Below, one piece after another: positions 15,588 to 49,107 of a DNA stretch of 64,000 nucleotides. The stretch is from Planctomycetota bacterium (GTDB taxonomy: Bacteria; Planctomycetota; UBA1135; UBA2386), in assembly GCA_965228735.1 (NCBI GenBank), contig OZ245838.1, positions 3,968,001-4,032,000 on the forward strand, given 5' to 3'. Each line of letters starts with the position of its first letter. Position 1 is the stretch's first letter. A program made the position numbers and the translations under genes. Below the pieces are notes generated by a model that was given only the letters and a program-made list of their open reading frames with translations, searched no databases and was not told the DNA's origin.

Positions 15588-15690
15588 ATCGACCCGCAGC
15601 CGCGCTCCCGTGCTGCTGTGCCGTATTCCGGCAGATGCCCAGTGCAGCAGCAGCCTTGCCACAGTACGTTGCCCGCGGAGGTTCCCCGCG

Positions 15691-18000: not shown

Positions 18001-18651
18001 TCAGAACGCCCCGAACGGGTCGCGCGACGCACCGATCAGTGGCCACGGCCCGACCGCACGACCGCCCGACCGCGCGAGAACCGCGACGACGGCGCGCAAT
18101 CCGGCCGGCAGCCCTGGCGCCGATTCGTCGAGCACGTCGACGCTCGCAACTACGGCGTGTTCGATCTCCCCTGCCGCGAACATGCGCTGCGCCTCGCGCA
18201 GAGCCGCACCGCGCCTCGCGTCGTCGACCGACAGGCTCGACGTGAGGCCGCGCAGCCCGAAGCGCAGGGCCATCTCGCCCAGGCTCGTCGTCGGCAGCGT
18301 GTAGGGGAAGATCGTCGCTTCGACGACGTCGTCCGCGAGTGACCGGGTGTATCGCCGATCGATCTCGAGGCAGCCGACATGGGTCTCGGCGAGCACGGCA
18401 GCGGCGTGCCGCGCGGACTCGCCGAGCACGTCCTCGATCCCGGCTGCCATGGCCGCGAGAACGAGCGAACGCGAGATGCGATCGAGCCGGCGGTAGGTCG
18501 AATCCGTCCGATCGAAGAGCCGACGCGGTGTCCGCCCGTCACCCGGCGCAGCGACCCCGAGCTCTTGCCACGTGCGATCGAGTCCGCCGCTCCCCCGGAT
18601 GCGTTCCGCGTCGACCACCCCGACCGCCAGCACTGTCGGCGATTCGCTCAT
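18001..18651 (-). CDS. Ketosynthase N-terminal-like / chain-length-factor-like protein
   Basis: YRRLDRISR, FPYTLPTT..GE.A.RFGLRG; no catalytic Cys-His-His; overlaps the KS stop codon. Confidence 0.75.
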   Translation of the reverse strand: MSESPTVLAVGVVDAERIRGSGGLDRTWQELGVAAPGDGRTPRRLFDRTDSTYRRLDRISRSLVLAAMAAGIEDVLGESARHAAAVLAETHVGCLEIDRRYTRSLADDVVEATIFPYTLPTTSLGEMALRFGLRGLTSSLSVDDARRGAALREAQRMFAAGEIEHAVVASVDVLDESAPGLPAGLRAVVAVLARSGGRAVGPWPLIGASRDPFGAF

Positions 18652-19778
18652 GCCTCGAACACCGCCGCGGCCTGCACCCCGCCGAAGCCGCTCGCCACCT
18701 TGAGCAGACGCCGCGCGCGCGGCAGGGTTCGCGCCGTCGGCTGCACATCGAGTCGCGGGTCGATCGCCTTGTTCGCGAGCCCGACGTTGCCGGGCACGAC
18801 GCCGCGCTCGAGGGCGGCGATGCCGAGCAGCGTCTCGATCGTGCCCGCGGCACCGAGCGTGTGACCGGTCTGCGACTTGGTCCCGAACGCCGGCGGCGTC
18901 GACTCACCGAACACGTTGCCGAGCCCGATCGCCTCGGTCTCGTCGTTGGCCCGCGTTCCGGTCCCGTGCAGGTGCAGGACGTCGACGTCGGTCGTCGCGA
19001 TGCCCGCGTGCGCCATCGCGCGCGCGGCAGCCGTGCCGACCCCGCGACCTTCGTAGTCCGGACCGGTGACGTGACACGCATCGTTCGCGCCGGCGTGGCC
19101 CGTGAGCCGGACCGCGAACCCGCTCGGGCCGGGCGCCGCAGCGAGCACGATCGCGCCCGCACCGTCGCCGAGCGACACCCCGCGACGCTCGCGATCGAAC
19201 GGCCGACACCGGCCGGGATCGAGCGCGTGCATGGCACCGAAGCCGCGCAGGATGAACTCGTTGAGCACGTCGACCCCGATGACGAGCGCGCGGTCGAGCT
19301 CGCCCGCGACGATGCGGCGCGCGGCCATCGAGAGCGCGATCAGGCCAGAGGCGCACGCGCACGAGATCGCCTCGTGCACCGCGCCGACCTCGAGCCGCTG
19401 CGCGATGTCCTGAGCGAGGCGCAACGGCGAGCCGAAGCCCGCGCCCGGCCCCGTGATCCCGCTGAGATCGGCCTTGGTGCTGGCGACGAACACGCCGATC
19501 TCGCGCCGTTCCCGCCCCTCGACTCCGGCTTCCTCGAGCGCCTCGCGCCCCGCGACCGCACCTGCCCAACCGATGAGATCCGCTTCCTCGACGCCGGCAT
19601 CGATCGCCGCGGCCGGGATCTCGGCCGCGACTTCGGTCGGCGCGGAGAACGCGGCCGTCCGCTCACGGGCGCGCAGCGCGGACGCGCCGGCGAACACGCC
19701 GTCGACCAGCGGCGCGAGCCCACGCCCGAACCCGCTGATGGCCCCGCGACCCGCAACGAACACGTCCCGCCGCGTCAC
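18648..19778 (-). CDS. Beta-ketoacyl-ACP synthase
   Basis: SCACASG active Cys, HLHGTGT..ND, KSQTGHTLGAAG, SGFGG. Confidence 0.92.
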   Translation of the reverse strand: MTRRDVFVAGRGAISGFGRGLAPLVDGVFAGASALRARERTAAFSAPTEVAAEIPAAAIDAGVEEADLIGWAGAVAGREALEEAGVEGRERREIGVFVASTKADLSGITGPGAGFGSPLRLAQDIAQRLEVGAVHEAISCACASGLIALSMAARRIVAGELDRALVIGVDVLNEFILRGFGAMHALDPGRCRPFDRERRGVSLGDGAGAIVLAAAPGPSGFAVRLTGHAGANDACHVTGPDYEGRGVGTAAARAMAHAGIATTDVDVLHLHGTGTRANDETEAIGLGNVFGESTPPAFGTKSQTGHTLGAAGTIETLLGIAALERGVVPGNVGLANKAIDPRLDVQPTARTLPRARRLLKVASGFGGVQAAAVFEA

Positions 19779-20455
19779 GTTCCCCCGCCGGGCAAGACGG
19801 ATTCGACCTGGTTGTCGACATCGAGGACGTAGCCGAACCACTGATTCTCGAGTCGCACGCGCCGCGGGCCACGGCGATCGCCCTCGCCCCATTCGTACCG
19901 CACGACGATGGCGCCGTTCTGATCCGGCCGCTCGAAGCGGCGCTCCTGCAGGTGGCCGTCGCGCCAGCGCTCGCTCACCCGTTCGCCGTCGACGGTCGCC
20001 GAGCGGGCGTGGGCCGATCCGCCGACGCCCCCAGCGAAACCCCCATCGAAACCCCACGGATAGAACGCGCGCTGCGCATCGAGCAGGATGAACCGCGCGG
20101 GGAACGGCAGCTCTTCCTCGGTGTTGTTGGTCACCTGGATCTGCCCGTCGGCTCCGAGCTGGATGACGAACCCGACGGTCCCCATCGGCGAGAGTCCGAC
20201 CAGCGTCAGCATGTCGCCGCGCTTCTGCAGCGCGGCGTCGAACCCGCGCTGCTGACCCTCGCCCCACGACGCCGTCACGTGCTGCTGCCACACGACGTCG
20301 AACGGCAGTTCGGCCGGCGCGCGCAACACCCCCGGATAGTCCGCCGGCTCGAACTCACGCCGCGCGGGCGCCGCCGAGCAACCGCACGTCCCGAGAACGG
20401 TGAGAGTCGCAGCGATGGCGGTGAGTGGCGCGAGGCGCGGGCGGACGGCGGTCAT
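19775..20455 (-). CDS. DUF3261 lipoprotein (ApeN-like)
   Basis: Lipoprotein-like Cys after hydrophobic N-terminus; LTLVGLSPMG, ILLDAQ..YP; located after the MMPL gene as in ape clusters. Confidence 0.75.
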   Translation of the reverse strand: MTAVRPRLAPLTAIAATLTVLGTCGCSAAPARREFEPADYPGVLRAPAELPFDVVWQQHVTASWGEGQQRGFDAALQKRGDMLTLVGLSPMGTVGFVIQLGADGQIQVTNNTEEELPFPARFILLDAQRAFYPWGFDGGFAGGVGGSAHARSATVDGERVSERWRDGHLQERRFERPDQNGAIVVRYEWGEGDRRGPRRVRLENQWFGYVLDVDNQVESVLPGGGT

Positions 20456-22827
20456 GACGATCGACGGCCCATCGCGGCGCAGAGCGTCGGGGCCAGGGCC
20501 AGACACAGTAGCACGCCGACGAGAGATGTCAGGCCGATCGAGAACAACGGCGGCTGATCCGACAGCGCCAGGAGACCGAAGCCCAGCGCGGTCGAGATGC
20601 CCGCGACGACGACCGCGAGCAGGCTCGCGGAGAGCCGCCGCGGATCGCCCGCCGTCTCGGCGAGGAAGACGCCGTAGTCGACGCCCATGCTGACGACCAT
20701 GAGCAGCGCGACGAGCGTCAGCATGTTGAGCTCGACGCCGAGCAGGCCGAGCAGACCGACGGTCGCGCCGGCCGCGAGCAGCGCCGGGCCGCACGCGATC
20801 GCGGTCAGGCGAAGCGAACGGTGACGCAGGAAGACGAGGCCGAGCACAGCGGCGAGCCCGACGAGCCAGAGCTGCAGCAGACGCGTCCGATACCCCGCAT
20901 ACGCGGCCGTCAGCGTCGCGGGCACGTCGACGTAGCGGGCGCCCGGAATCGCTCCGATCGCGGCGCTGAGCGCGTCCGCGTCGCGCAGGTCGTGCAGGAA
21001 GCTCAGGAACCCGATGCCGGTCGGGAGCTCGATGCGAAAAGGCCGAACGAGTGCTTCGAGCGGAGTGTCGTCGAGGTCGGCCGGCACGACCGGTTGCGGC
21101 GCCGGCTGCGCGAGTGCCGTGCGGAACGGCTCGAACATCGATGTCCGGAACCCGGCCGCACCGAGCGCTGCGGTCGCGCGATCGAAGAGGCCATCGTCAC
21201 CGCGCACGACCGCGTCGACCGCGCGCTGCCTCTTGGCGCTCGGTACGAGCGGCTCGATGCTGCGAAAGCCGCCGAGCGCCGCGTCGGCTTCGAGCTGCCG
21301 CAGGGCGGCCGCCACGCGATCGTTGACCTCGAGTGCGGCCTGTTCGCTGTCGCCGAGTGCGACCACGAGCCGGCCCTGCTCGTAGCGCACGACCCGCTCG
21401 CGCACCGCCTCGTCGGCCGCCTGGAGTTCGGGATCGAGCCGGTTCATCGCCGCGATGTCGTCGTTCCATCGCGTCATCGGAAGCCCGGCGGCAGCGAGCA
21501 GGGTGGCGACCACGAGCGGCACGAGGAGCCAACCGCGACGCGAGCCGTTCACGCCCGCTCCGAACCAGCCCCCGAGGCGCCGAACGAGCCACTGCGCCCG
21601 CGCCGTCGGCTGCGCCGTGCGCGCGGACAAACCCGGCAGGAAGAGCCGGGTCGCGAGCACCGCACCGAGAATGCCGCACACCGCGAAGACCGCGAGCTGG
21701 CGCAGGCCGGGGAACGACGAGGCGACGAGCGCGAGGAAGCCCGTGATCGTCGTCGCGGCACCGAGCACGAGCGGTCGCCAGATCGCGCGCAGCGTGGCGC
21801 TCGGGCCGCCCGGCTCCGGCGCGAGCACGTGATGACACTGGAAGTGGATCGCGTAGTCGATCGTCACGCCGATGAGCGCCGCGCCGAACGCGAGCGTCAG
21901 ACCGTGCACGCTGCCGAAGAGCAGCTGGCACGCGAGCGTGCCGGAGAGGAAGGCCGTGGCTAGCACCGGCAGCACCAGACCCACGAGCCGCAGCGAGCCG
22001 AAGACGAGGAGCAGGAACGCCACGAGCCCGACCGTCGAGCCGACGCTCACCCGCTCGATGTCCGCCCGAATCGCCTCCTCGGCGCGCACGGCGAACCGGT
22101 TGGTGCCGCTCAGCCCGAGCTCGAGCACGCCGCCGAACTCGGTGTTCATCCGCGCGAACGCCGCATGCAGGCCGTCGAGGAACGGGCGCTGCACGGTGCC
22201 GCTCGACGCGGACGAGCGCGTCGCGAGAAACAGCACGGCCGCGCTGCCGTCCGCAGTGAGGAAGCGATCGTCGTGCATCGACAAGCCCTCGCCACGGCCC
22301 GTTGCGAGCCGCTTGAACAGGTCCTCGAGCACGAGCAACGGGTCGGCCGGCGCGATGCGCGTGAGCACCGTCGACATCGGCAGCAGCAGCCGGTCCTTGA
22401 GGTCACGGGCCGCCACTTCGAGAGCAGCCGGTGTGAGTCGCGCCCGGGCCGCCGCCACATCGGCGGCGACGAACCCGAACCGCCGCGGCTCGTAGAGCTC
22501 GTAGAGCGCCTCCTCGACGCCGGCCGGCGGGCTCGCGTCGAGGAACGCGAGCTCGTCACCGACGTGCGGCTCTGCCCGCAACTCGCGTTCGAACGTCCGA
22601 CTCGCCCGGGCCGCGGTCTCGCGGTCCGGCGCGTCGACGAGCACGACCATCATGCGGCTCAGTTCGCCGGCGGCGAGCTCACGCGCGAGCTGCACGTTCT
22701 CTGCGTCCGCACCCGCCGGCAGGAAGTGCAGGATGTCCGTGACGACCCGCAGCTGCAGCAGGACGAACGTCGCGAGGGTGGCGAGCACGAGCGCGCCGAG
22801 GCCGAGGGCGCGCCGCTCCGACGTCAC
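20452..22827 (-). CDS. MMPL family exporter (ApeM-like)
   Basis: TDILHFLP, DPLL, LTLAFGAALIGVTIDYAIH, FPGLRQLAVF, MGVDYG. Confidence 0.9.
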   Translation of the reverse strand: MTSERRALGLGALVLATLATFVLLQLRVVTDILHFLPAGADAENVQLARELAAGELSRMMVVLVDAPDRETAARASRTFERELRAEPHVGDELAFLDASPPAGVEEALYELYEPRRFGFVAADVAAARARLTPAALEVAARDLKDRLLLPMSTVLTRIAPADPLLVLEDLFKRLATGRGEGLSMHDDRFLTADGSAAVLFLATRSSASSGTVQRPFLDGLHAAFARMNTEFGGVLELGLSGTNRFAVRAEEAIRADIERVSVGSTVGLVAFLLLVFGSLRLVGLVLPVLATAFLSGTLACQLLFGSVHGLTLAFGAALIGVTIDYAIHFQCHHVLAPEPGGPSATLRAIWRPLVLGAATTITGFLALVASSFPGLRQLAVFAVCGILGAVLATRLFLPGLSARTAQPTARAQWLVRRLGGWFGAGVNGSRRGWLLVPLVVATLLAAAGLPMTRWNDDIAAMNRLDPELQAADEAVRERVVRYEQGRLVVALGDSEQAALEVNDRVAAALRQLEADAALGGFRSIEPLVPSAKRQRAVDAVVRGDDGLFDRATAALGAAGFRTSMFEPFRTALAQPAPQPVVPADLDDTPLEALVRPFRIELPTGIGFLSFLHDLRDADALSAAIGAIPGARYVDVPATLTAAYAGYRTRLLQLWLVGLAAVLGLVFLRHRSLRLTAIACGPALLAAGATVGLLGLLGVELNMLTLVALLMVVSMGVDYGVFLAETAGDPRRLSASLLAVVVAGISTALGFGLLALSDQPPLFSIGLTSLVGVLLCLALAPTLCAAMGRRSS

Positions 22828-23546
22828 CGACCGTCCTTGCGCAGCGCCTTCGGCTCGATCCCGAACAACTCGCGCTCTTCCTTCGCCGTGAACTGCCGCT
22901 TCGGGTCGGCGCGCACGATCGTCGTGACCGTGCGATCACCGCTCGGCTCGAGGATCTCGATCTCGCGCACGAAGTAACCCTCACCGCGCAGCGTGAGCGA
23001 CTTCAGCATCTTGTCGAGCGGCTCCGCGCGCGGCCGCAGCACGAGCGACCAGCGCGATTCGTCCTTCTCGTCGAGCCGATACTCGATGCGGTAGTGCCGC
23101 GCGAGCGCCTCCCGGTCGCCGCGAAACACCCGCACGAGTGACGTCACGAACTGCTGCAACACGCCGCTCTTGCCGAGATCGATGACCTCGGTGCCCGACG
23201 TGTCCGCGACTTCGAGGCGCTCCGGTGTGATCCGCAGCCGCACGCGCCGCGGCTTCTCGACCTGGCGGACGAGGTAACCGGGCTGGCGGAAGTAGAGCTT
23301 GCCCGAGCTCTCGTACGGCACGACGAGCAGCTGCAGATGCTTCTTCTCGACGTAGGACGCCTCGAGCGCCGGCATCTCGGCGAACTTCGCGAACAGCTGC
23401 GCCGCGGTCGCCGGCCGCTTCGGGTCGAGCTGCCTCGGACCTGGCTGCTTCGGATCTGGCGTGGCGGCCGCAGGTTCCTGAGCCGGCAACGACAAAGCGC
23501 ACGCGAGGGCGCAGCTAATCGACAGGCAAACGCTCGAGGATCGCAT
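22824..23546 (-). CDS. LolA-like lipoprotein carrier (ApeL-like)
   Basis: Signal peptide; EKKHLQLL.PYESSG..VEKP; E.SGDRT. Confidence 0.8.
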   Translation of the reverse strand: MRSSSVCLSISCALACALSLPAQEPAAATPDPKQPGPRQLDPKRPATAAQLFAKFAEMPALEASYVEKKHLQLLVVPYESSGKLYFRQPGYLVRQVEKPRRVRLRITPERLEVADTSGTEVIDLGKSGVLQQFVTSLVRVFRGDREALARHYRIEYRLDEKDESRWSLVLRPRAEPLDKMLKSLTLRGEGYFVREIEILEPSGDRTVTTIVRADPKRQFTAKEERELFGIEPKALRKDGR

Positions 23547-23937
23547 CAGGGGTGGAAGGCAGCAGTTCGCCGGCAGCATCCGTGACCGCGAGCACCGTCG
23601 TGCCGCGCGCGCTCCAGCGCTCCGTCGCCGGATTGTAGATGTCGTAGTTCACGCGGATCAAGGGCGCCGCGGCGTTGAACCACGCGCTGATCTCCACCGG
23701 GTCGGAGTAGGCGAGCGGCGCCATGTAGCGCAGCTTGAGGTCGACCACGTACATGCGATGACCCAGCGCCCGGATCTCGTGCACCTCGAGCCCCACGCTC
23801 GCGAACAGCTCGGTGCGCGCGAGCTCGAACCACTCGAGGTAGCGGCCGTGCCACGCGACGCCGAGCGGATCGCATTGATGGAACGCCACCTTCGTGCTGA
23901 CGGTGACGGCGTGGTCGGGGCGTTGCGGTCGGCTCAC
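23515..23937 (-). CDS. Acyl-CoA thioesterase (4HBT/YbgC family, ApeK-like)
   Basis: VAFHQCDPLGVAWHGRYLEWFELAR. Confidence 0.88.
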   Translation of the reverse strand: MSRPQRPDHAVTVSTKVAFHQCDPLGVAWHGRYLEWFELARTELFASVGLEVHEIRALGHRMYVVDLKLRYMAPLAYSDPVEISAWFNAAAPLIRVNYDIYNPATERWSARGTTVLAVTDAAGELLPSTPDAILERLPVD

Positions 23938-25582: not shown

Positions 25583-27066
25583 TCCTTGGACTCTCCACCC
25601 TCCGCGGCAGCGGCGAAGTGCAGCTTGCCCGACGTACAGCGGGTGTCGCCACACCAGATCTCGAACTGCACGCGCCGGCCCTCGGCGAGCCCGCTGAGCC
25701 GCACCACGAGCTCGTCGCCGGGCGCGATGCGGGCCAGGAACTTGACGCCATCGAGGCGTTCGAGCGGACCGATCGCGGGCCGGGCGGCGCGGATGCAGGG
25801 CAGCACGAGTTCTTGCAGCTGCACCCCGCCCGCCAGCACGGCGTAGGTCGTGAAGTGGCCTTCGAAGAACGCGTACCGCCGCGGCAACTGCGTGCGATAC
25901 CGCTGCTCGTCGCCGCCGTCCTCGAGCTCCGAGCGCCACGACAGCTCGCGGGTCACGCGCGCACCGTCGCGGCCGCGGCCGAGCCGCGCGCAGAGGTCAC
26001 CGAAATCGACGCGGCCGTTGGGGTCGCGAGGCACGGCCTCGACCGTTCGCAGCACGAGCTCGACGTGTTCTTCGAACACGGCCGCCGCGGCAGCGCGTGC
26101 GGAGAGCAACACGGAGTCCGGTCCGACGATGGCGACGAAGGCCTCGGCCGGCGCGTCCGGCGGCGCGATGCCGACCCCGGCGTCGACGACGCCGTCGATC
26201 GCGAACAACCGCTCGGTGCAGGTCGCGAGCGCGTCGACTTCGTCGCCGAGGGCCGCGCCGACGCGCACGTCGTGGCGGTCGCGCACGAGCTCGGCCGGTC
26301 GATCCGGCGGCGGCCCGTCGGTGAGCACGGCCGACAGCCCGCCGAGTCGGCCGGCCGGCAGCTCGGCGAGCCCACGGAGCTGCGGTGCCGAACACAACAG
26401 GATCGCGGCCTCCGCGGCTGCCGCCGCATCCGCGAGTTCCGCCACCGACTTCGGGTGATCGAGGCCGAACCCGCCGCGCAGCCGCAGCGGCGCGAGCAGT
26501 CCGACGAGCACCGCGGGCAGGAACATCGGCGCGAAGCCGTGCACCGCGACCTCGCCGCGAGCGAGCTCGAGATCGTCGATGGCGCGCTCGATCACGGCGG
26601 TCAGTTCGCTCGCGGTGAAGCGCTCGATGCCGATGCGACCGTCGCCCCCCGGCGTGTGCGTCTCGAGCACGATGCGGTCCGGGTCCGGGGGCAGCAGCGG
26701 CGGCACGGTGATCGCCGCGGTGCGTTCGGCGGCGAGCAGCTCGGACACGTCGATCCCCCGCCGCACACCGCAATCGTGCAGGAACTCGGCGTGCTCCGGG
26801 CGCGACATCACGGGCAGCACGCTGGCGCGCCGATCGCTCTCGGGCAACGCGACGCCGTGACCGGCGAGCCACGAGCCGAGCAGCGCGGCCGCGAACGCCG
26901 CGCGGTCGTGGCCGAACGCGAACGTCACCATCGATCCGGGCGACGGTGCCGGCAGCCGGGAGGCGACGAGCGCCGCGTTCTGCCAGAGTTCTTCGGCCAT
27001 CAGGACGCGTTCGCGTCCGCGCGCCACCGCGCCGGTCGTGACCTCGTTGCGCAGGACGTCGAGCAT
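25579..27066 (-). CDS. Degenerate AMP-binding (acyl-ACP synthetase-like) domain fused to a hotdog dehydratase (ApeH-ApeI-like)
   Basis: N-terminal FAAALLGSWLAG..LP and VPRDPNGRV resemble an adenylation enzyme; C-terminal FFEGHF..VLAGGVQL..VKFLARIAPG is FabA/Z-like. Confidence 0.75.
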   Translation of the reverse strand: MLDVLRNEVTTGAVARGRERVLMAEELWQNAALVASRLPAPSPGSMVTFAFGHDRAAFAAALLGSWLAGHGVALPESDRRASVLPVMSRPEHAEFLHDCGVRRGIDVSELLAAERTAAITVPPLLPPDPDRIVLETHTPGGDGRIGIERFTASELTAVIERAIDDLELARGEVAVHGFAPMFLPAVLVGLLAPLRLRGGFGLDHPKSVAELADAAAAAEAAILLCSAPQLRGLAELPAGRLGGLSAVLTDGPPPDRPAELVRDRHDVRVGAALGDEVDALATCTERLFAIDGVVDAGVGIAPPDAPAEAFVAIVGPDSVLLSARAAAAAVFEEHVELVLRTVEAVPRDPNGRVDFGDLCARLGRGRDGARVTRELSWRSELEDGGDEQRYRTQLPRRYAFFEGHFTTYAVLAGGVQLQELVLPCIRAARPAIGPLERLDGVKFLARIAPGDELVVRLSGLAEGRRVQFEIWCGDTRCTSGKLHFAAAAEGGESKE

Positions 27067-27662
27067 CAGGCGACATCCTCACCGGGAGCCGAGAAGCGCC
27101 GGCGCCGCATCACCCACTCGGTGAGCAGCAGCGCGCCGAGCAACGCGTAGGACAGCAGTCCCGTATAGAAGGTCCACCACGTGATCGGCGCGAAGATGGC
27201 GAGCGCGGCCGCGGTCGCGCCATTGACCACGAAGAACGCGCACCAGATGCGCGTCCACGCGCGGCACCACGCGACCTGGTCGGCGTTGAGTTCGGGCTCC
27301 TGCAGCCGCGCGAACCGCTCGATCATCGGCATCGCCCCGGCGCGCAGCGTCGCGCCGAACACGACGAGCAGCGCCGCGTTGATGACGACGGGGACGGCGA
27401 AGATCATCCCGGCGGCGTCGAGGCTCGCCGCCGCCGCCAGAACGACGAACGTGACGAGGGGGATCGCCGCCAGGCCGCGCAGGCCGGCTCGTCGACTCCG
27501 GCGCAACCGCACGACCGCGATGGGCGCGATCACGGCGAGCAGGATCAGCGCCAGCCAGCGCGCCGACAGGACGACACCCGTGGCTCCCGACAACGCCAGC
27601 CAGACGAGGACCGGATAGGCGACGAGCGCGACACCGGCGAGCACTCGGAGCGCGCGGAGCAT
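27066..27662 (-). CDS. COG4648-type membrane protein (ApeG-like)
   Basis: AYPVLVW, PVVIN..FGATL..PMIERFARL, W..FFVVNG, WTFYTGLLSY.L.G..EW.MR. Confidence 0.85.
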   Translation of the reverse strand: MLRALRVLAGVALVAYPVLVWLALSGATGVVLSARWLALILLAVIAPIAVVRLRRSRRAGLRGLAAIPLVTFVVLAAAASLDAAGMIFAVPVVINAALLVVFGATLRAGAMPMIERFARLQEPELNADQVAWCRAWTRIWCAFFVVNGATAAALAIFAPITWWTFYTGLLSYALLGALLLTEWVMRRRRFSAPGEDVA

Positions 27663-27683
27663 GGGCGCGGGCCGCGAGCGCGA

Positions 27684-27974
27684 TCAGGCCGTATCGGCCG
27701 ACGCCGCTTCGGCTTCGGCCTGCTTCTCGCGGATGAACTTCGCGAGCGATTCCACCGAGTAGTAGTACTCGCGGTTCTTCTCGTCGTTCTCCTTGGTGCG
27801 CACGCCGAACTCCTTGTGGATCGCGAGCGCGAGCTCGAGCGCGTCGATCGAGTCGAGGCCGAGCCCCTCGCCGAACAAGGGCGCCGCCGTCTCGATGCTC
27901 GCGGGATCGACGTCCTCGAGCGCGAGCGTCTCGACGATGAGCTTCTTCAACCGGTCTTCGAGCTGATCTGACAT
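27684..27974 (-). CDS. Acyl carrier protein
   Basis: LKKLIVETLALED..PLFGEGLGLDSIDALEL phosphopantetheine motif. Confidence 0.95.
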   Translation of the reverse strand: MSDQLEDRLKKLIVETLALEDVDPASIETAAPLFGEGLGLDSIDALELALAIHKEFGVRTKENDEKNREYYYSVESLAKFIREKQAEAEAASADTA

Positions 27975-28807
27975 TCGGATTCCTGCCCGGAATCGTAGGC
28001 AGGCAGAACCGGCGGCACAAGCTCGCGCAGCCACGCCCGGTAGCGTTCTTCCGCCCGAGCGCGCAGCCGGCGACTGTCGTGGTCCACGACGGCCGGATCG
28101 TCGACCGCGAGGACGGCGAGCCGCAGCACCGGGGTCGGATGCGCTGGACGGAACAGCGGCACTTCCTTGCTCAGGTAGACCGGCTCGCAGGTGACCGTCA
28201 GCGAGACGAGCGGGACGCGCGCGCGGCACGCGACCTCGAACGCGAGGCGGCCGAAGCGGTGCAGACCACCGGGCGGCGACCGCGTGCCCTCGGGGAAGAT
28301 GATCAGGGGCATCCCCCAGCCGAGGCGTTCGACGACGTCGTCGATGACGCGACCCGCAGACACGGGATCGGCGCCCGGCCCCTCGACATGACCGGCCCCC
28401 TCGAGCAGCTGACGCAGCATGGGACGGCCGAAGACCGCCGGCTTGACCACCGTGGTGCCCGCGCCGATCACCGCCGTGATCGACGTGATGTCCATGAGCG
28501 TCGGGTGATTCGCGATCACGACGCACGGGCCCGACGGCAGGCCGGAAAGCGGCGCATCCGGGTCGAAACGGGTGATGCGCAGCCAGGTGAGCCAGCGATG
28601 CATCAGCCGGTAGGCGAACGCCTGCACGCCCTGCAGCCGCCGCGCGCACCGCTGCCGATCGCCGCGCCACAGGAAACACAGCACTGCGAACAGCAGATAG
28701 CCGAGCGGCGTCATCACGGTGTAGATCGACACCGTCAACAGCACGTTGCACCAACGGATCGCGCGCTTGACGGGTCGCCACCGGTCCTGATTGCAGACCT
28801 CCGACAT
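27947..28807 (-). CDS. Lysophospholipid acyltransferase (PlsC family, ApeD-like)
   Basis: ANHPTLMD (HxxxxD), IFPEGTRS. Confidence 0.9.
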   Translation of the reverse strand: MSEVCNQDRWRPVKRAIRWCNVLLTVSIYTVMTPLGYLLFAVLCFLWRGDRQRCARRLQGVQAFAYRLMHRWLTWLRITRFDPDAPLSGLPSGPCVVIANHPTLMDITSITAVIGAGTTVVKPAVFGRPMLRQLLEGAGHVEGPGADPVSAGRVIDDVVERLGWGMPLIIFPEGTRSPPGGLHRFGRLAFEVACRARVPLVSLTVTCEPVYLSKEVPLFRPAHPTPVLRLAVLAVDDPAVVDHDSRRLRARAEERYRAWLRELVPPVLPAYDSGQESECQISSKTG

Positions 28808-28870
28808 GGGGCTAGACTCACGGGGCGAATCGGGCCGTACGGGCCCGATCGCCTGCTCCACCTTACCAAC

Positions 28871-30715: not shown

Positions 30716-30724
30716 GGCGGAGCC

Positions 30725-31759
30725 CTGGCCGACTCCGGACAACCGCCGTCCCAGAACCCCGCCGACCACCTGCTCCATCTGCTCGGCGGCAAGCACCGCG
30801 CACAGGCGCTCTCGACCGCGGCCGCGCTGGGGATCGCCGATCGACTCCGAGAACGGCAACCGCAGACCGCGAACGAGCTGGCCGATGCGATCGGCTCGGC
30901 GGACCCGGACGCGCTGGCGAGCCTGCTGCAACTGCTGGCCGGCCTCGGCTACCTGCAGCAACCGGAGCCCGGCGCGTTCGCGCTCACATCGCACGGCGAA
31001 CTGCTCTGCGCCGACGCGCTCGGCCCGTTCGCCGCGTTCCTCGGCAGCCCCGAGCAATGGGATCCATGGTCGCGGCTGCGCGACACGCTGACCGATCCGC
31101 AGAACAGTGGCCGAACGCCGTTCGAACTCAGCAACGGCGCGCCGCTCTACGAGCACATGGCGCAGGACCCGGCCGCGGCGGCGCGCTACGACCGCGCGAT
31201 CGACGCGTTCACCCGCCACGAGGCCCGCCTGCTCGTCGAGCGCTTCCCCGATGGTGTGACGGGCACCATCGTCGACGTCGGCGGCGGGCGCGGCACGCTG
31301 CTGCACGAACTGCTGCCGGCCTGGCCGAGCGCGCGCGGCGTGCTGTTCGACCTGCCGCACGTGATCGCGGCGGCACCGGCGGCGGCACCGGCCGAGCTGC
31401 GCGACCGACTCGACTTCGTCGCCGGCGACTTCTTCGAGACGATGCCCGGCGGCGCTGAGCTCTACATCGTGAAGCACGTGCTGCACAACTGGGACGATGA
31501 CCGCGCCGTCGCACTGCTGCAGCGTTGCCGAGCTGCGATGGCCGAGGGTGGTCGCGTTCTCGTGATCGACGCCGTTCTCGCGCCGGACAGTCGGCCCGAT
31601 CTCGCGCGTCTGCTCGACCTCGAGATGCGGGTCCTGACCGCCGGTCGCGAACGCCGCAAGCCGGAGATCCGGCGCTTGTTCACGCGCGCGGGGTTGCGCC
31701 TTACCGACGTCGAGCAGCTGACCGCGGCCAGCTGGATGCTGCTCGGCACGCGGGCCTGA
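30725..31759 (+). CDS. O-methyltransferase (dimerisation domain + Methyltransf_2); start uncertain (CTG or read-through)
   Basis: Frame open from 30716: ALSTAAALGIADRL dimerisation domain, VDVGGGRG, FDLP, GDFF, KHVLHNW; first ATG/GTG/TTG only at 31157. Confidence 0.85.
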   Translation: MADSGQPPSQNPADHLLHLLGGKHRAQALSTAAALGIADRLRERQPQTANELADAIGSADPDALASLLQLLAGLGYLQQPEPGAFALTSHGELLCADALGPFAAFLGSPEQWDPWSRLRDTLTDPQNSGRTPFELSNGAPLYEHMAQDPAAAARYDRAIDAFTRHEARLLVERFPDGVTGTIVDVGGGRGTLLHELLPAWPSARGVLFDLPHVIAAAPAAAPAELRDRLDFVAGDFFETMPGGAELYIVKHVLHNWDDDRAVALLQRCRAAMAEGGRVLVIDAVLAPDSRPDLARLLDLEMRVLTAGRERRKPEIRRLFTRAGLRLTDVEQLTAASWMLLGTRA

Positions 31760-31805
31760 ACGCCGTCGCCGAGCCGCCCGCCGCCTTCTCAACCGGGGGC
31801 CCAGA

Positions 31806-32240
31806 TCAACCGGGAGGCTGCGTGCCGTGCACGAGCGTCAGCGTCGACGTCGCGACGGTCGCACCGGCCTCGTCGACGACGGAGGCTTCGAAGTGACTGA
31901 GGCTCTCCGTGCCGCGCACGCAACGTGCCTCGACGACGTACCGCGACCCGACGGGCAGACTCGGGCGGTGCACCGCCATCTGCCGGCACGCGATGACCAT
32001 GCCGACGCGCACTTCCTCGCCTTCGGCGTAGGCCTCCATGCCGAGGCACGCGGCGACGGTCTGCGCCATGTACTCGAGCGTCATCACCGCATCGACCGCG
32101 CCGTCACGGACCGTGAGTCCGTCCGGGTGGATCACGAGCCGTGCCCGCGCGCGCCCCTTCTCGTACTCGACGAGTTCGTCGAGGCCGAGCATCGGGCGCT
32201 GGTGCGGCACGAGCTCCGAGACCGACGGGAAGGCGCTCAC
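31806..32240 (-). CDS. 3-hydroxyacyl-ACP dehydratase (ApeP-like hotdog)
   Basis: ELVPHQRPMLGLD, LEYMAQTVAA, GMVIACR. Confidence 0.85.
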   Translation of the reverse strand: MSAFPSVSELVPHQRPMLGLDELVEYEKGRARARLVIHPDGLTVRDGAVDAVMTLEYMAQTVAACLGMEAYAEGEEVRVGMVIACRQMAVHRPSLPVGSRYVVEARCVRGTESLSHFEASVVDEAGATVATSTLTLVHGTQPPG

Positions 32241-33037
32241 TGCTGACCACCTTCGGGGTCGCGGATCTCGGCGCAGTAGCCGCGCCCGTGCCCGCGATCG
32301 AGCGCGACCACGCCCCGTTCCTCGCGAGCGATCGCGGCGACGAGATCGAACATCCCGACAGTGGGGTTGCCGGCCAACGCATCCTCGCCCGCGGGCTCGA
32401 GGCTGGCGGGCGCAGCCTCGCCGTCACTCACCAGCTGCAACCTCGCAAGACCACCTTCGCCTGCCGGAGCGAGCACGAGCGCCGCCGCGAGCATGTCCCA
32501 GTTGGGATCATCCTTGCTCATCAGGCTGCGGGGCGACGCCTCGTCGGCACAGACCACGACGACCGGACCGCCGGTCGTCGCGACGAGGGCGGCACCCTCG
32601 AGCAGCGCCGCGAACGGCGTGTCGCGGTCCGCCGCGAGCGAAGTCGTGAACCCGACGTTCTTCTTGGCGATGGAGATCATCCCGCTCGCGGCGTTGTGCA
32701 CGCTGACCGTGAACGCCGCGGGCGACATCGGCTCGCGCGTGCGCCACATCGAGTCGAGCAACCCGATCATCGTCGACGCCTCGCCGACCGCCGAGCCGAC
32801 GATCACGGGCGTCGTGACGGGATCGACCCCCGCCGCGGTAACGGCCTCTTCGACCGCGTCGCCGATCGCGCGACCGAGCGAGCTGACCCGCCGCCGCCCG
32901 CGCTTGTCGAACGCGAGCCCGATCGGCTTGAGCTCGCCCGGTGCGCGATCGTCGTTACGAAACGCGCTCGCCGACGCGTAGTGCATCGTCCAGAGGCCGA
33001 TGCCGGTGACGTGGACGTGGACGGCAGCCTCGGTCAT
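32237..33037 (-). CDS. Ketosynthase chain-length factor (ApeC-like)
   Basis: RRRVSSLGR, SPAAFTVSVHNAASG; no catalytic Cys. Confidence 0.85.
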   Translation of the reverse strand: MTEAAVHVHVTGIGLWTMHYASASAFRNDDRAPGELKPIGLAFDKRGRRRVSSLGRAIGDAVEEAVTAAGVDPVTTPVIVGSAVGEASTMIGLLDSMWRTREPMSPAAFTVSVHNAASGMISIAKKNVGFTTSLAADRDTPFAALLEGAALVATTGGPVVVVCADEASPRSLMSKDDPNWDMLAAALVLAPAGEGGLARLQLVSDGEAAPASLEPAGEDALAGNPTVGMFDLVAAIAREERGVVALDRGHGRGYCAEIRDPEGGQQ

Positions 33038-34215
33038 GGCGCCCCCACGATCAGACTGACGTTGTTGCCGCCGAACGCGAACGAGTTGCTCAACACCCGC
33101 CGGATCGTGCCGCTGGTCTTGGAGTTCGGAATCGTGAGCTCGACCGCGGGGTCCACGGGGTCCACCGCGAGCGCCGGCGGGATCCAACCCTCCTCGATCG
33201 CCAGAGCGGCCATGACGAACTCGATGGCCGCGGCCGCGCCGAGCGTGTGGCCGGTGTACGCCTTGGTCGATACGACCGGCACGTCGCGGCCGAGGGTGGC
33301 CGCGATCGCCTTGGATTCGGCAGTGTCGTTGAGGTGCGTGCCGGTCCCGTGCGCGTTCACGTGATCGATGTCGGACGCCGCGCACCCGGCCTCGGCGAGC
33401 GCCGCGGTCATCGCGGCGCGCGCGCCCGCGCCCTCGGGATGCGGCGCGCTGATGTGATAGGAGTCGGAGGTCTCACCGACGCCCTCGACGACCACCCGCG
33501 CATCACCCTCGCGTTCGACGAGCGCGAACGCGCCGCCCTCGCCGATGCTGATGCCGTTGCGCTCCGCCGAGAACGGGCGGCACGGCACCTGATCGAGCGC
33601 CTGTAGCGACTGGAAGCCCTGCAGCGTCATGCTGCAGAGTGTGTCCATGCCGCCGACGATGGCCGCATCGACCAGCCCGGCCGCGATGAGCCGACGCGCG
33701 GTCGCGAACGACTTGCCGCTCGACGTGCACGCCGTCGAGATCATCCACGACGGGCCGCGCGCACCCGAAAGCTCGCGGACGACGTGCAGCGCCGCACCGA
33801 ACGTATGCTGCCGATGGAAGTCGTAGCGCCCCGGGAAGTGCCCGTGTTCCACGAGCTCGCGGTAGGCGACCTCCGTCGTCTCGGCCCCGGCCGTGCTCGT
33901 GCCGAGGATCACGGCGATGCGTTCGGGCCGCCAGCGTTCGCGCGCGCGCCCGAGCGGCTCGCCGAGATCCTGCACGAGCTGCGCGGCCATCCGCGACAAC
34001 CTGGTCGACCACGGCAGCAACCGTTCGGGGAGTTCCGGCAGTTCCGTCCCGACCGCGCCGACGGCCGTCTTGAAGTCGAGCGGGATCGGCGAGTCGCCGA
34101 GTCCCGTCCGCCCGGCCGCGAGGGCGTCGAGGTGCGCCGCGCGGCCGTGGCCGAGTGCGCTGAGGACGCTGTAGCCGGTCACGGGCAGCGGTCGAAACGT
34201 CGAAGCAGTCGGCAT
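33034..34215 (-). CDS. Beta-ketoacyl-ACP synthase (ApeO-like)
   Basis: STACTSS, NAHGTGT..ND, STK.YTGHTLGAA, NSFAFGGNN. Confidence 0.95.
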   Translation of the reverse strand: MPTASTFRPLPVTGYSVLSALGHGRAAHLDALAAGRTGLGDSPIPLDFKTAVGAVGTELPELPERLLPWSTRLSRMAAQLVQDLGEPLGRARERWRPERIAVILGTSTAGAETTEVAYRELVEHGHFPGRYDFHRQHTFGAALHVVRELSGARGPSWMISTACTSSGKSFATARRLIAAGLVDAAIVGGMDTLCSMTLQGFQSLQALDQVPCRPFSAERNGISIGEGGAFALVEREGDARVVVEGVGETSDSYHISAPHPEGAGARAAMTAALAEAGCAASDIDHVNAHGTGTHLNDTAESKAIAATLGRDVPVVSTKAYTGHTLGAAAAIEFVMAALAIEEGWIPPALAVDPVDPAVELTIPNSKTSGTIRRVLSNSFAFGGNNVSLIVGAP

Positions 34216-34240
34216 GCAGTGATCTCGCGATCTCGCCGCG

Positions 34241-35530
34241 TCAGGCTCGCACCGAGCCGGCCCGACGGCGCGCCCGCAGCAGCATCTCCTGGAACGGGTT
34301 GCCCGTGCGCCAGACATCGCCGGCGAGGACGCTCATGACGCCGCTGCGCAGCTCCATGTCCGTGTTGTCGCCGAGGAACATCGTCTCGGCGAAGTGTGAG
34401 TTGTAGAAGCGCTCGATGAGCCCGGCGAACGTGCGATACGCCCGGTCCATGCTCGCGTGGTGTTCGTCGAGCAGTGCCGGGTCCGCTTCCGTACCATTGG
34501 CGAGTGCCGGTCCGACGACGTTCGCGATGCTCGCGGCCGCCCGCAGAGCGAGCGTGACACCGGACGAGAACACCGGGTCGAGGAAGCACGCCGCGTCGCC
34601 CGCGGCCGCGAACCGCGCGCCATGGGCCTTGGTGTTACGATAGCTGAAGTTGCCGACCACCCGCGTCTCCTCGCGGGTCGCCGACCGCGTGAGCCGCTGC
34701 GCGAGGGGACCGCTGAGCAGGCCCGCATCGAGCTCTTCGCGCGTCATCTTGCCCTGGCTCACCATGCCGATGCTCACCCGCCGATCCGGCAACGGGATGA
34801 TCCATCCCCACCCTTCGGCGCGCAGCATGATCCGGATGTCGAAATCCGGCCCGAGCTCCGCGGTATCGGCGTTGGCGAAGTGCGTGAACGCCGCGGAGTG
34901 GCCGAACTGACTGTAGTGCTCGACGGCGTCCGCCCGCCGGGCCAGGAGCCGCGACTGCCCCGAGGCATCGATCAGATACCGCGCCCGGAACCGCCGCGTC
35001 GCGCCGGTCGCGTCGCGGGTCTCGGCCCAGGCCGCGTGCGGACCAGATCCGTGTTGACCAGATCCGTGTTGGCCAGAGGGCTCCGCGTCGACCCCCGCGT
35101 CGATCACCGTCTCACCATGCCGCACCTCGGCGCCGAGCTCACGCGCGCGATCCCGGAGCTGGGTGTCGAACGTCGCGCGCGTGACGTGCCACGCGTGCGG
35201 CGGACAGCCCGGCAGCGCCTCGTCGAAGCCGAACGCCTGCTCGCGTTTCGTCGCCTCGCAGACGAAGCGTGCGCCGCGCTTGTAGACGAACGTGTCGGGG
35301 GCGGACTCGATCCCGAGCTCCTCGAGCACCGGCAGGCACGCGGGCAGCAGCGACTCACCGATCCGGAAGCGCGGAAACTCCTCGCGCTCGAGCACGAGCA
35401 CGTCGTGCCCCTGCCGCGCGAGCAGCCCGGCCACGGCCGTGCCCGCAGGCCCGCCCCCCAATACGAGGACATCGCGGACGAGGACATCGCGGACCATGAC
35501 GTCGCGTTCGCCGGTATCGGTCGCCGCCAT
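34241..35530 (-). CDS. FAD-dependent oxidoreductase / halogenase-like protein
   Basis: GGGPAG, PRFRIGESLLP, YKRGA, WGWIIPL, GDAACFLDPVFSSGV. Confidence 0.88.
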   Translation of the reverse strand: MAATDTGERDVMVRDVLVRDVLVLGGGPAGTAVAGLLARQGHDVLVLEREEFPRFRIGESLLPACLPVLEELGIESAPDTFVYKRGARFVCEATKREQAFGFDEALPGCPPHAWHVTRATFDTQLRDRARELGAEVRHGETVIDAGVDAEPSGQHGSGQHGSGPHAAWAETRDATGATRRFRARYLIDASGQSRLLARRADAVEHYSQFGHSAAFTHFANADTAELGPDFDIRIMLRAEGWGWIIPLPDRRVSIGMVSQGKMTREELDAGLLSGPLAQRLTRSATREETRVVGNFSYRNTKAHGARFAAAGDAACFLDPVFSSGVTLALRAAASIANVVGPALANGTEADPALLDEHHASMDRAYRTFAGLIERFYNSHFAETMFLGDNTDMELRSGVMSVLAGDVWRTGNPFQEMLLRARRRAGSVRA

Positions 35531-36276
35531 CAGCCGAATCCTCCATCGATCCCGATGGATTGCCCCGTGATGTAGGCCGCGTCGTCGGACGCCAGGAATC
35601 CGACGAGCGCGGCGACCTCCTCCGGCCGCCCGACGCGCTGCATCGGAATCTGCTTCGTCACGAAGTCGGGCACGCCCTCGATCATAGCGGTGTCGATCAG
35701 CCCGGGTGCGACGGCGTTGACGGTGATCTTGCGCTTGGCGAGTTCCATCGCGAGCGCGCGCGTCGCGCCCACGATCCCGGCCTTGGCGGCGGCATAGTTG
35801 ACCTGGCCGCGGTTGCCGCGCGTCGCCGAGATCGACGACATGTTGATGATGCGACCCCACTTCCGCTGCACCATCTGCATCACGAGCGGATGGGTGACGT
35901 GGTAGAAGCCGTCGAGCGACGTCCGCAGCACCGCGTGCCAGTCGTCGAGCGCGAGCGCCGGGAACGCGTTGTCCCGCACGACGCCGGCGTTGTTCACGAG
36001 CACGCCGATCGGGCGTTCGTCGGTGAGCAGCTCCTCGATCGCGGCGCCCGTGGCCGCGCCGTCACCGACGTCGAACTGGCGCGCCACCGCCTCGCCGCCG
36101 CCAGCTGTGATCGACTCCACGATGGCCTGCGCGCCGGCTTCGTCACGGTTGAAGTTGACGATTACGGGATGCCCCATCGCGCCGAGGCGGCGGGCGATCG
36201 CCGCACCGATGCCCTTGCTCGCGCCCGTGACGAGCGCCCGCGTCGCGCGGGCCCGATCGTTCGTAGCCACCGTCAT
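35530..36276 (-). CDS. fabG: 3-oxoacyl-ACP reductase (ApeQ/FabG-like)
   Basis: TGASKGIG, NNAG, GQVNYAAAK, NAVAPGLIDT. Confidence 0.92.
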   Translation of the reverse strand: MTVATNDRARATRALVTGASKGIGAAIARRLGAMGHPVIVNFNRDEAGAQAIVESITAGGGEAVARQFDVGDGAATGAAIEELLTDERPIGVLVNNAGVVRDNAFPALALDDWHAVLRTSLDGFYHVTHPLVMQMVQRKWGRIINMSSISATRGNRGQVNYAAAKAGIVGATRALAMELAKRKITVNAVAPGLIDTAMIEGVPDFVTKQIPMQRVGRPEEVAALVGFLASDDAAYITGQSIGIDGGFG

Positions 36277-36869
36277 TGCACCTCCAGGACGCGACCAGCC
36301 GCGTCGAAGTGGACGCGCACCGGCGACCTATCGTCGCGCCAGTACTTCCAGACGGTGCTGGAGAGCGAGATCGTGCCGCTCTGCGGCGGTGGTCCGAACG
36401 CCGCGAGCACGGCCTTCTTCGTCATGCCCGGCAGAACCTGCCCGGTCTCGATCGCGCGCTGTTCCGCGCCGCCGAACTCGCTGAGATCGATCGGCTTCGG
36501 CGCGAGGACCTGGCGGTAGGCGTCCCACAGCGAACCGCCGGTCGCGCGCGGGTCGTTCTGCACGATCAGCGTGCTGCCGTCCTCGGTTCGCAGCTCGATC
36601 GTGTCCCCGCCGCTCTGCAGCAGTTCGACCTTCGTGTTGATCGGCACGAAGCGGCAGCCCTCGAAGAACAGGGCGGGCAGCGCCGGCCGGAGATTGCGGG
36701 TGTCGTGCACGCCGTCCTGACTGTAGAGCGAGTAGCGCGTGTAGTGCTCGCCTTCGACGATCGCCGCACGATTCGACATCACGCACCCGGCACCGACGAC
36801 GAGCAGCCCGGTAGCCGTAACGACGGCGAACATCACCGCGGCAACGCGACGAGGGGAGAACCGGGGCAT
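36273..36869 (-). CDS. Hypothetical lipoprotein
   Basis: VVGAGC lipobox; AIETGQVLPGMTKKAVLAAFGPP..W.YW (BamE/SmpA-like tail); overlaps the fabG start. Confidence 0.75.
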   Translation of the reverse strand: MPRFSPRRVAAVMFAVVTATGLLVVGAGCVMSNRAAIVEGEHYTRYSLYSQDGVHDTRNLRPALPALFFEGCRFVPINTKVELLQSGGDTIELRTEDGSTLIVQNDPRATGGSLWDAYRQVLAPKPIDLSEFGGAEQRAIETGQVLPGMTKKAVLAAFGPPPQSGTISLSSTVWKYWRDDRSPVRVHFDAAGRVLEVQ

Positions 36870-37874: not shown

Positions 37875-37922
37875 GGGGGCCACGATAGTGGCTCGCCGGA
37901 GCTACGCGAGCTGCGAGCTCAC

Positions 37923-41176: not shown

Positions 41177-41183
41177 GGCTAGC

Positions 41184-41597: not shown

Positions 41598-41632
41598 GGT
41601 TTGCTTTTCGTCTCGAGTTCTGGAGGTTTGCT

Positions 41633-42280: not shown

Positions 42281-42285
42281 GGCCC

Positions 42286-43896: not shown

Positions 43897-43903
43897 ATAC
43901 TCC

Positions 43904-44737: not shown

Positions 44738-44769
44738 TGGGGAGGGAAGGAGGGCTGTGATTCGTTCGC

Positions 44770-47721: not shown

Positions 47722-47735
47722 GTCGCGGTCGCCGG

Positions 47736-48977: not shown

Positions 48978-49107
48978 CGCTGTCGAACCGGGCACCCGTC
49001 GAGCGCCCGCCAAACTCCAGCGGGAGACCACGCTGCAAAGAGCGCGGTCTCCCGGCAAATGCCCGGTCCGAAGGACCGAGCGTCGTGACAATCGTTGGTA
49101 TCGATTC

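What the first reader, a model, noticed from the sequence alone, without database searches (positions are those of the whole stretch)
18001..36869. Aryl-polyene-like lipid cluster with two halogenase-like enzymes and an O-methyltransferase in a probable planctomycete
Seen: one operon follows the ape order (acyltransferase, ACP, COG4648, AMP-ligase/DH, GT2, LpxL-like, thioesterase, LolA, MMPL, DUF3261, KS, CLF-like). A second operon has KR, FAD enzyme, KS, CLF and DH. A divergent halogenase-O-methyltransferase unit sits between them. Both FAD enzymes have GxGxxG and WxWxIP. Known: xanthomonadins are brominated, methoxy-aryl polyenes made by related clusters. Inference: a multiply halogenated, O-methylated aryl-polyene glycolipid. 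No ammonia-lyase, chorismate-derived starter enzyme or flavin reductase was recognised here.
Basis: partly seen in the sequence, partly recalled or inferred. Interest (0 to 1): 0.75.

Follow-up and report, generated by a model that had tools for sequence, protein, structure and literature searches.

The report
Polyene-lipid cluster with dead starter loader
A probable marine planctomycete carries an aryl-polyene-type lipid gene cluster whose usual starter-loading enzyme has lost its catalytic parts, here and in its relatives, so it likely starts its chain another way and likely makes a halogenated membrane polyene lipid of unknown structure.

Summary
The 20 genes are there as described, with intact active-site motifs except one. 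The 'AMP-ligase/DH' is a pseudo-ligase: no Pfam, NCBIfam or PDB hit; P-loop lost, about 75 residues (A5-A8) deleted, catalytic Lys replaced. The same decay is in 23 of 23 full-length copies from this family, and the cluster-type ammonia-lyase is found in 0 of 91 family genomes (control 5 of 5). Myxobacterial and spirochaete versions keep lyase and ligase but lack the second KS-CLF pair, which groups with the flexirubin-type pair; flexirubin starts from a CoA thioester. Best reading: an ape-family glycolipid pathway re-primed through KS2-CLF2 from an outside thioester; an aryl head is not established. Two halogenase-like genes are not new: the xanthomonadin cluster has both types. The ArcA-like one occurs in a cluster making a non-brominated pigment, so 'multiply halogenated' is weak; the divergent enzyme is the better halogenase candidate. 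New variant of a known kind.

The parts
18001..18651 (-). CLF2: short chain-length-factor-like partner of KS2 (216 aa)
   Evidence: No Pfam/NCBIfam hit; BLASTP to Bacteroidota short CLFs E 4e-12 and 9e-07; modelled with KS2, score 0.94 vs best control 0.00
18648..19778 (-). KS2: ketosynthase, Cys-His-His kept, groups with the flexirubin-type KS that precedes a short CLF
19775..20455 (-). DUF3261 (ApeN-like)
   Evidence: PF11659 2e-13
20452..22827 (-). MMPL/RND exporter (ApeM-like)
   Evidence: PF03176
22824..23546 (-). LolA-like carrier (ApeL-like); start may be 23579
   Evidence: PF19574; NF053544 below cut-off
23515..23937 (-). 4HBT thioesterase (ApeK-like)
   Evidence: PF13279
23934..24833 (-). 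LpxL-like acyltransferase (ApeJ C-half)
   Evidence: PF03279
24830..25582 (-). GT2 glycosyltransferase (ApeJ N-half)
   Evidence: PF00535
25579..27066 (-). Pseudo-ligase (dead ApeH-type adenylation domain) fused to an ApeI-like dehydratase
   Evidence: No family or PDB hit alone; aligns to intact orthologues that hit PF00501; motifs lost; profile hits ANL enzymes and 3ESI
27066..27662 (-). COG4648-like membrane protein (ApeG-like; label by position and recall)
   Evidence: conserved in relatives; no family hit
27684..27974 (-). Single ACP (DSID)
   Evidence: NF006617 over cut-off
27947..28807 (-). PlsC-type acyltransferase (ApeD-like), NHPTLMD kept
   Evidence: PF01553
28871..30715 (+). FAD-B: long flavin-dependent halogenase-family enzyme (614 aa; alternative start 28925); Lys at 29165-29167
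   Evidence: PF04820; Lys in 120 of 120 homologues; Foldseek top hits all halogenases; tree
30725..31759 (+). Class II O-methyltransferase, inferred CTG start, SAM motif and His kept
   Evidence: PF00891 + PF08100
31806..32240 (-). ApeP-like dehydratase
   Evidence: PF22817
32237..33037 (-). CLF1 (ApeC-like)
   Evidence: PF13723 4e-26; 7F28_A E 0.0014
33034..34215 (-). KS1 (ApeO-like), Cys-His-His kept
   Evidence: PRK09185 over cut-off; 6QSP 2e-71
34241..35530 (-). FAD-A: ArcA/Xcc4013-like halogenase-family enzyme (429 aa); Lys at 35281-35279
   Evidence: PF04820; FasV 8ZOP and 3NIX best; Lys in 119 of 119 homologues; tree
35530..36276 (-). FabG ketoreductase (ApeQ-like)
   Evidence: NF004200 over cut-off
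36273..36869 (-). Small lipoprotein-like protein, found only in close relatives
   Evidence: no family hit; homologues in G001 and G022 only

Best explanation
This is an ape/xanthomonadin-family type II polyketide cluster whose starter-loading ligase is catalytically dead, and it likely primes its chain through the second KS-CLF pair from a thioester made outside the cluster, giving a likely halogenated polyene glycolipid exported to the outer membrane. Shown: gene content, motif loss in the ligase, absence of the cluster lyase, family-wide conservation. Inferred steps: KS2-CLF2 accepts an acyl- or aryl-acyl-CoA and hands the first extended unit to the ACP; KS1-CLF1, FabG and the two dehydratases (the ApeP-like one and the domain kept on the pseudo-ligase) extend the polyene; FAD-B halogenates an ACP-bound intermediate using a flavin reductase from elsewhere; the methyltransferase acts only if a phenol or enol is present; the ApeD-like, GT2 and LpxL-like enzymes build the glycolipid; MMPL, LolA-like and DUF3261 export it. 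Whether the head is aromatic is open (about even); FAD-A is probably not a second independent halogenase.
For: Ligase: intact orthologues keep P-loop, GSTETGG, GRxDGxVK and NGK with 78-92 residues between A5 and A8 (8 of 8 rows); 23 of 23 full-length family copies have none of them and 0-10 residues there (6 partial rows and 1 unaligned locus left out). Cluster-type lyase 0 of 91 family genomes, control 5 of 5; G000's one lyase is hutH beside hutU; no UbiC or XanB2 hit. Complement: KS2 in 33 of 91, FAD-B orthologue in 31 of 91, both in 28; no KS2 orthologue in 7 of 7 genomes with a full-length ligase, and other genes follow DUF3261 in 3 of 3 such loci that run on past it. KS2 groups with the Bacteroidota KS-before-short-CLF (99 SH-aLRT, quick tree); FlxY makes 4-coumaroyl-CoA, so flexirubin is CoA-primed (PMC3992019, passages). 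KS2-CLF2 model 0.94 vs control 0.00 (mark met by 116 of 157 solved and 2 of 215 mismatched pairs; runs agree in 98% of contacts; partner pLDDT 91 or more; like complexes are solved, so it may pass by likeness). Two PaaK/FlxY-like CoA ligases in G000, at least one in 4 of 4 cluster-bearing family genomes tested. FAD-B is under strong constraint (dN/dS 0.18-0.31), and its family sits after KS-CLF(-GT2), the place of Xcc4001, in gammaproteobacterial ape loci and in an enacyloxin-type cluster. Holders include coral and macroalgae metagenomes.
Against: No function is published for the flexirubin short-CLF pair in what I read, so CoA priming by KS2 is a guess. Bacteroidota clusters hold this pair together with a lyase and ligase. 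The swap is essentially one event in one family, not many independent ones. The PaaK-like ligases lie in beta-oxidation-type loci, the better-conserved one is in 66 of 91 genomes, many without the cluster, and is not found in cluster-bearing G022. All FlxY hits are far below the family cut-off. FAD-B = Xcc4001-type rests on gene order and matching identity ranges, not on a direct alignment. No product, expression or enzyme data.
Confidence: 0.45

Rival explanations
1. Two aliphatic chains, no aryl head: KS1-CLF1 is primed by acetyl or a fatty acyl group, and KS2-CLF2 makes a second chain, like the conjugated fatty acyl of Xenorhabdus APELs. FAD-B makes a vinyl halide on the chain.
For: APELs carry a C26:5 conjugated acyl chain beside the aryl polyene, placed by ApeD (10.1101/2020.12.19.423268, main text read). 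KS2-CLF2 sits at the end of the operon, there is no ApeR, and two acyltransferases are kept. No dedicated aromatic acid supply. Methyltransferase relaxed (dN/dS 0.39-0.51) and absent in 5 clusters. The FAD-B family serves an enacyloxin-type cluster whose product has no aromatic ring (structure recalled).
Against: One ACP only. Intact-type clusters have both acyltransferases with one KS pair, so two acyltransferases do not imply two pathway chains. Most clusters keep the class II methyltransferase next to FAD-B.
Confidence: 0.25
2. The product carries no halogen: both FAD enzymes act as reductases or hydroxylases, or are idle.
For: Arcuflavin C41H52O4 is non-brominated despite arcA; Xcc4013 is annotated 'reductase/halogenase'; weaker hits to QhpG and geranylgeranyl reductases; no flavin reductase in the cluster.
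Against: WxWxIP and the Lys are invariant in both sets; the first 24 Foldseek rows listed for FAD-B are halogenases or 3NIX; a flavin reductase family gene is in the genome.
Confidence: 0.12
3. KS2-CLF2 builds a ring head from malonate on the ACP (resorcinol or pyrone), which FAD-B halogenates and the methyltransferase methylates.
For: Would explain keeping FAD-B and a phenol-type methyltransferase without any aromatic acid supply.
Against: No cyclase gene; KS2's relatives are in polyene clusters; methyltransferase is dispensable in some.
Confidence: 0.08
4. The cluster is a decaying relic.
For: Dead ligase, lost lyase, non-standard methyltransferase start.
Against: Open frames and dN/dS 0.18-0.33 for core genes; kept in about a third of 91 family genomes; even the N-terminal 110 residues of the pseudo-ligase are constrained (0.25).
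Confidence: 0.05
5. One reading: classical aryl polyene loaded by the in-cluster AMP ligase and halogenated twice.
For: Gene order and both halogenase motifs.
Against: ATP-binding and catalytic motifs are gone.
Confidence: 0.03

Closest known systems
Aryl polyene (ape) clusters of E. coli CFT073 / Xenorhabdus doucetiae (APEL lipids)
   Same: ApeD, ACP, G, H/I, J (split), K, L, M, N order; ApeO/ApeC-like KS-CLF, ApeP, ApeQ
   Different: ApeH is dead and fused to the DH; one ACP; no ApeR, ApeA or ApeB-type C-methyltransferase; flexirubin-type second pair; two FAD enzymes and a class II O-methyltransferase
Xanthomonadin cluster (Xcc3998-4015)
   Same: Two halogenase-like genes of two distant types, one ACP, KS-CLF, GT, exporter (PMC3949708 Table S4)
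   Different: Xanthomonas has XanB2 and an intact AMP ligase and one KS pair; here no chorismatase, dead ligase, two pairs, linked O-methyltransferase
Arcuflavin cluster (Azoarcus BH72)
   Same: FAD-A-type gene (ArcA), O-methylated aryl polyene
   Different: Intact ArcB/ArcT, no Xcc4001-type gene, non-brominated product
Flexirubin clusters (Bacteroidota)
   Same: KS plus short CLF pair related to KS2-CLF2; CoA-thioester start
   Different: They keep lyase, FlxY and three KS systems; DarAB not seen in this cluster
Intact sister clusters in Myxococcota and a spirochaete MAG (L042-L046)
   Same: FAD-B 50-52%, methyltransferase, FAD-A, KS1, same layout
   Different: Keep lyase and ligase, lack KS2-CLF2; products unknown to me
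Enacyloxin-type halogenase (Burkholderia ubonensis locus L055)
   Same: 41% to FAD-B over 408 residues, same family in the tree
   Different: Modular PKS; cluster identified from Pfam content and recalled gene order; papers read confirm two chlorinations and an MT-GNAT loading module only
3,5-dibromo-p-anisic acid (baa) of planctomycete strain 10988
   Same: Planctomycete, halogenase, O-methylation
   Different: Free small molecule from a chorismate lyase; no PKS; no UbiC in G000

Membership tests
ape gene cluster | ApeO/ApeC-type KS-CLF, ACP, KR, DH, ApeM transporter | tested here: met
ape gene cluster | Second KS of ApeR type | tested here: not met
   KS2 is outside the ApeR clade
ape gene cluster | Active aryl-acid:ACP ligase (ApeH) | tested here: not met
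   motifs lost; no orthologue elsewhere
ape gene cluster | Lipid attachment and export set (ApeD, J, K, L, M, N) | tested here: met
aryl polyene (product class) | Aromatic head conjugated to a polyene | not testable with these tools
   needs chemistry; no dedicated precursor gene found
xanthomonadin cluster | XanB2 chorismatase plus 3-HBA ligase | tested here: not met
   no XanB2 hit in genome
xanthomonadin cluster | Xcc4001-type and Xcc4013-type FAD genes | tested here: inconclusive
   two matching types by gene order and identity range; no direct alignment to the Xcc proteins
flavin-dependent halogenase | GxGxxG, WxWxIP, conserved Lys | tested here: met
   (motif roles recalled)
flavin-dependent halogenase | Halide-dependent halogenation | not testable with these tools
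   assay needed
flexirubin cluster | Ammonia-lyase FlxA and CoA ligase FlxY in cluster | tested here: not met
flexirubin cluster | KS with short CLF partner | tested here: met
flexirubin cluster | DarA/DarB in genome | not tested
   not searched
ladderane / plain FAS II | KS1 in FabF-like or ladderane clade | tested here: inconclusive
   KS1 is ApeO-like, not FabF; no ladderane sequences were in the tree

The most novel reading that the evidence does not exclude
A family of uncultured marine and freshwater planctomycetes rebuilt the aryl-polyene pathway: it discarded lyase and ligase catalysis, kept the dead ligase as a scaffold for its dehydratase, and recruited a flexirubin-type KS-CLF pair as primer, making an outer-membrane polyene glycolipid with no aryl head and a vinyl halide put on by an enacyloxin/xanthomonadin-type halogenase. 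It would also give a function to the unexplained short-CLF pair of flexirubin clusters.
Probability: 0.25. Interest if true: 0.72.

Novelty: new variant of a known kind. Interest (0 to 1): 0.5.

Why it matters
ape clusters are among the commonest bacterial clusters and are annotated as 'aryl polyene' from gene content. Here a third of a family's genomes carry one whose defining first enzyme cannot work, so the label mispredicts the chemistry. The natural pair of cluster types (lyase + ligase versus KS2-CLF2) makes two open points testable: what the flexirubin short-CLF pair does, and which of the two xanthomonadin-type FAD enzymes halogenates what. It is also a candidate source of organohalogen lipids on corals and seaweeds.

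Tried and rejected
Sequencing error or read-through fusion at the FAD-B/methyltransferase junction: sequence confirmed; relatives have two separate genes in different frames (8 of 8), so fusion is rejected. Genome ammonia-lyase as starter source: it is hutH with hutU. ApeH orthologue elsewhere: none among 10 PF00501 matches. G122 (Polyangiales MAG with a decayed ligase and no KS2) looked like a counter-example, but it holds a second ligase with P-loop, A5 and A8 motifs beside a lyase. Cabrillospirals: linked to type I PKS candidates, rejected. Promoter/terminator scan: at chance level. No RNA holder listed. First KS tree contained a mis-framed row and a long-branch row and did not finish; rebuilt without them as a quick tree only. 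ESM Atlas: FAD-B gave only halogenase-family clusters; CLF2 did not complete twice. Earlier scan findings: nothing. Primary enacyloxin paper not held. Paper searches: 'aryl polyene' + 'planctomycet' + 'halogenase' 0 papers; 'xanj' 0 occurrences in the 4 listed; review PMC12078418 has 0 occurrences of 'polyene'. Most subscription papers on xanthomonadin halogenation are outside the library. bioRxiv supplements (APEL Fig. S1, S17) were not seen and may bear on cluster subtypes.
Full report
Observation. GC is 69-73%, close to the rest of the window. The window also encodes DUF1501, PSD1 and PSCyt2 proteins (planctomycete association recalled), and the closest named homologues of FAD-B with the same gene order come from records titled Planctomycetota (61-76%; one 83% record is titled only 'bacterium'). 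Runs holding the DNA include coral and macroalgae metagenomes; the coral run was laid and matches without differing letters where it covers.

Family. KS1 passes the PRK09185 cut-off and its best solved relatives are 6QSP (2e-71) and 7F28_B, well ahead of FabF; that these are ApeO is recalled. CLF1 carries Ketoacyl-synt_2 and weakly hits their partner chains. The acyltransferase-to-DUF3261 run matches the E. coli apeD-apeN table (PMC8253772, passages).

The ligase is dead. The 495-aa gene at 25579-27066 hits nothing in Pfam, NCBIfam or PDB. Orthologues in Myxococcota and a spirochaete MAG (580-621 aa) hit PF00501. Against them the window protein has HTPGGDG for the TSGxTG loop, lacks the stretch from GSTETGG to GRxDGVVK, and has Arg at the NGK lysine, while the dehydratase motif is kept (motif roles recalled). 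Of 30 family loci fetched, 29 were aligned; 23 are full length and all 23 lack these motifs, against 8 of 8 intact rows outside the family. The N-terminal 110 residues and the DH remain constrained (dN/dS 0.25; 0.27-0.38), the old active-site region is relaxed (0.52-0.62) (two pairs, rough NG86). No ApeH orthologue lies elsewhere in G000.

Lyase lost, second pair gained. Intact-type clusters carry an aromatic ammonia-lyase between LpxL and the thioesterase. That lyase type is found in 0 of 91 family genomes and 5 of 5 controls. G000 has only hutH with hutU, no UbiC and no XanB2 hit (genome 93% complete). Conversely KS2 is in 33 of 91 family genomes, 28 of them also with the FAD-B orthologue, and is not found in 7 of 7 genomes with a full-length ligase; these are draft genomes. 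This is one evolutionary swap, not a statistical sample. KS2 keeps Cys-His-His and groups with the Bacteroidota KS that precedes a roughly 190-aa partner (quick tree, composition warnings); CLF2 matches those partners; a second cluster in G019 has the pair in the Bacteroidota order. The pair models as a dimer at 0.94 against 0.00 for the best control (116 of 157 solved, 2 of 215 mismatched pairs reach the mark; 98% contact agreement; pLDDT 91 or more), which may reflect likeness to solved KS-CLF complexes. Flexirubin starts from 4-coumaroyl-CoA made by FlxY (PMC3992019, passages). G000 has two PaaK/FlxY-like ligases, below cut-off, in beta-oxidation-type neighbourhoods; one is widespread regardless of the cluster (66 of 91) and not found in G022, which has a weaker FlxY-family match.

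The FAD enzymes. Both keep the motifs and a Lys that aligns between them. They are about 25% identical and fall in two well separated clades. FAD-A's clade includes FAD genes of ordinary ape clusters in Pseudoalteromonas and Azospirillum. FAD-B's clade includes genes directly after KS-CLF(-GT2) in gammaproteobacterial ape loci, some with XanB2, and a PKS cluster with enacyloxin-like content. Table S4 of PMC3949708 lists two halogenase-like genes in Xanthomonas: Xcc4001 after KS-CLF-GT (26% to ArcA) and Xcc4013 after the ACP (46% to ArcA); loci L066 and L075 show FAD-B and FAD-A types in those two places. Arcuflavin, from a cluster with ArcA only, is non-brominated (sections read); Lysobacter lacks a halogenase and makes non-brominated pigment (PMC3691225, passages). 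So two genes is the known xanthomonadin state, and FAD-B is the better halogenase candidate. A flavin-reductase family gene is elsewhere in the genome.

The methyltransferase. Complete class II enzyme with SAM motif and His, but the only plausible start is a CTG 9 bases after FAD-B's stop, 7 bases behind a GAGG; relatives mostly use a GTGA overlap. It is missing after FAD-B in 5 dead-ligase clusters (L047, L084, L086, L208, L209) and in one intact-type locus (L090).

Mechanism and verdict. Most likely (0.45): outside thioester to KS2-CLF2, extension by KS1-CLF1/KR/DHs, halogenation by FAD-B, attachment to a sugar-phosphoglycerolipid as in APELs (10.1101/2020.12.19.423268, main text), export. 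Rivals: two aliphatic chains (0.25), no halogen (0.12), ring made de novo (0.08), relic (0.05), classical in-cluster loading (0.03). It works like an ape cluster but fails the ApeH test, so 'aryl' is not established. I found no paper on this cluster type in the held library, which lacks most subscription journals. New variant of a known kind; interest 0.5.

Noticed in passing
L031, L032, L033, L034, L030, L035 (G013, G020, G008, G032, G036, G012): A second, uncharacterised cluster in the same family: ACP, KS, KS-like partner, FAD-B paralogue (36-40%), with MMPL, LolA, LpxL and an AMP ligase nearby. About 30 of 91 genomes have the paralogue; G000 does not. Its ligase could act in trans where present.
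   Followed up: partly
L236:11541-19998 (G019): A third cluster type in flexirubin-like order (KR, ACP, DH, TE, KS2-like, short CLF, ACP, KS, deacetylase) with a FAD-A-like gene 10 kb away.
   Followed up: partly
G000:C1:6619119-6623190: A third halogenase-family gene (CmlS-like 2e-54) near a thioesterase and a radical-SAM-like gene, among PQQ-repeat-like genes (neighbours judged by eye).
   Followed up: partly
window 30713-30727: Likely CTG start for the methyltransferase, same frame as the upstream gene; could lower or tune its expression.
   Followed up: yes
L056:8193-11596; L073; L112, L113, L123, L142: Tandem pairs of FAD-B-family genes in Rhodanobacter and metagenome loci.
   Followed up: no
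L048-L052, L065, L069: Cultured Nannocystis strains carry a stand-alone full-length FAD-B homologue (42-44%), a convenient source for an assay.
   Followed up: partly
L054, L080: Aquabacterium sp. A7-Y and a Janthinobacterium lividum plasmid carry the same halogenase-hydroxylase-thioesterase-PKS block as the enacyloxin-like Burkholderia locus.
   Followed up: partly
window 15526-17973 (+): CheB methylesterase fused to GGDEF and EAL domains, converging on the cluster's end.
   Followed up: no
window 36915-38921 (-): Nitrilase and Sel1-repeat genes just upstream of the KR operon; syntenic only in G001.
   Followed up: partly
window 39090-51012 (-): TonB-dependent receptor, ExbB/TonB-like and TPR genes with a secreted beta-helix-like protein; read by eye from translations.
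   Followed up: no
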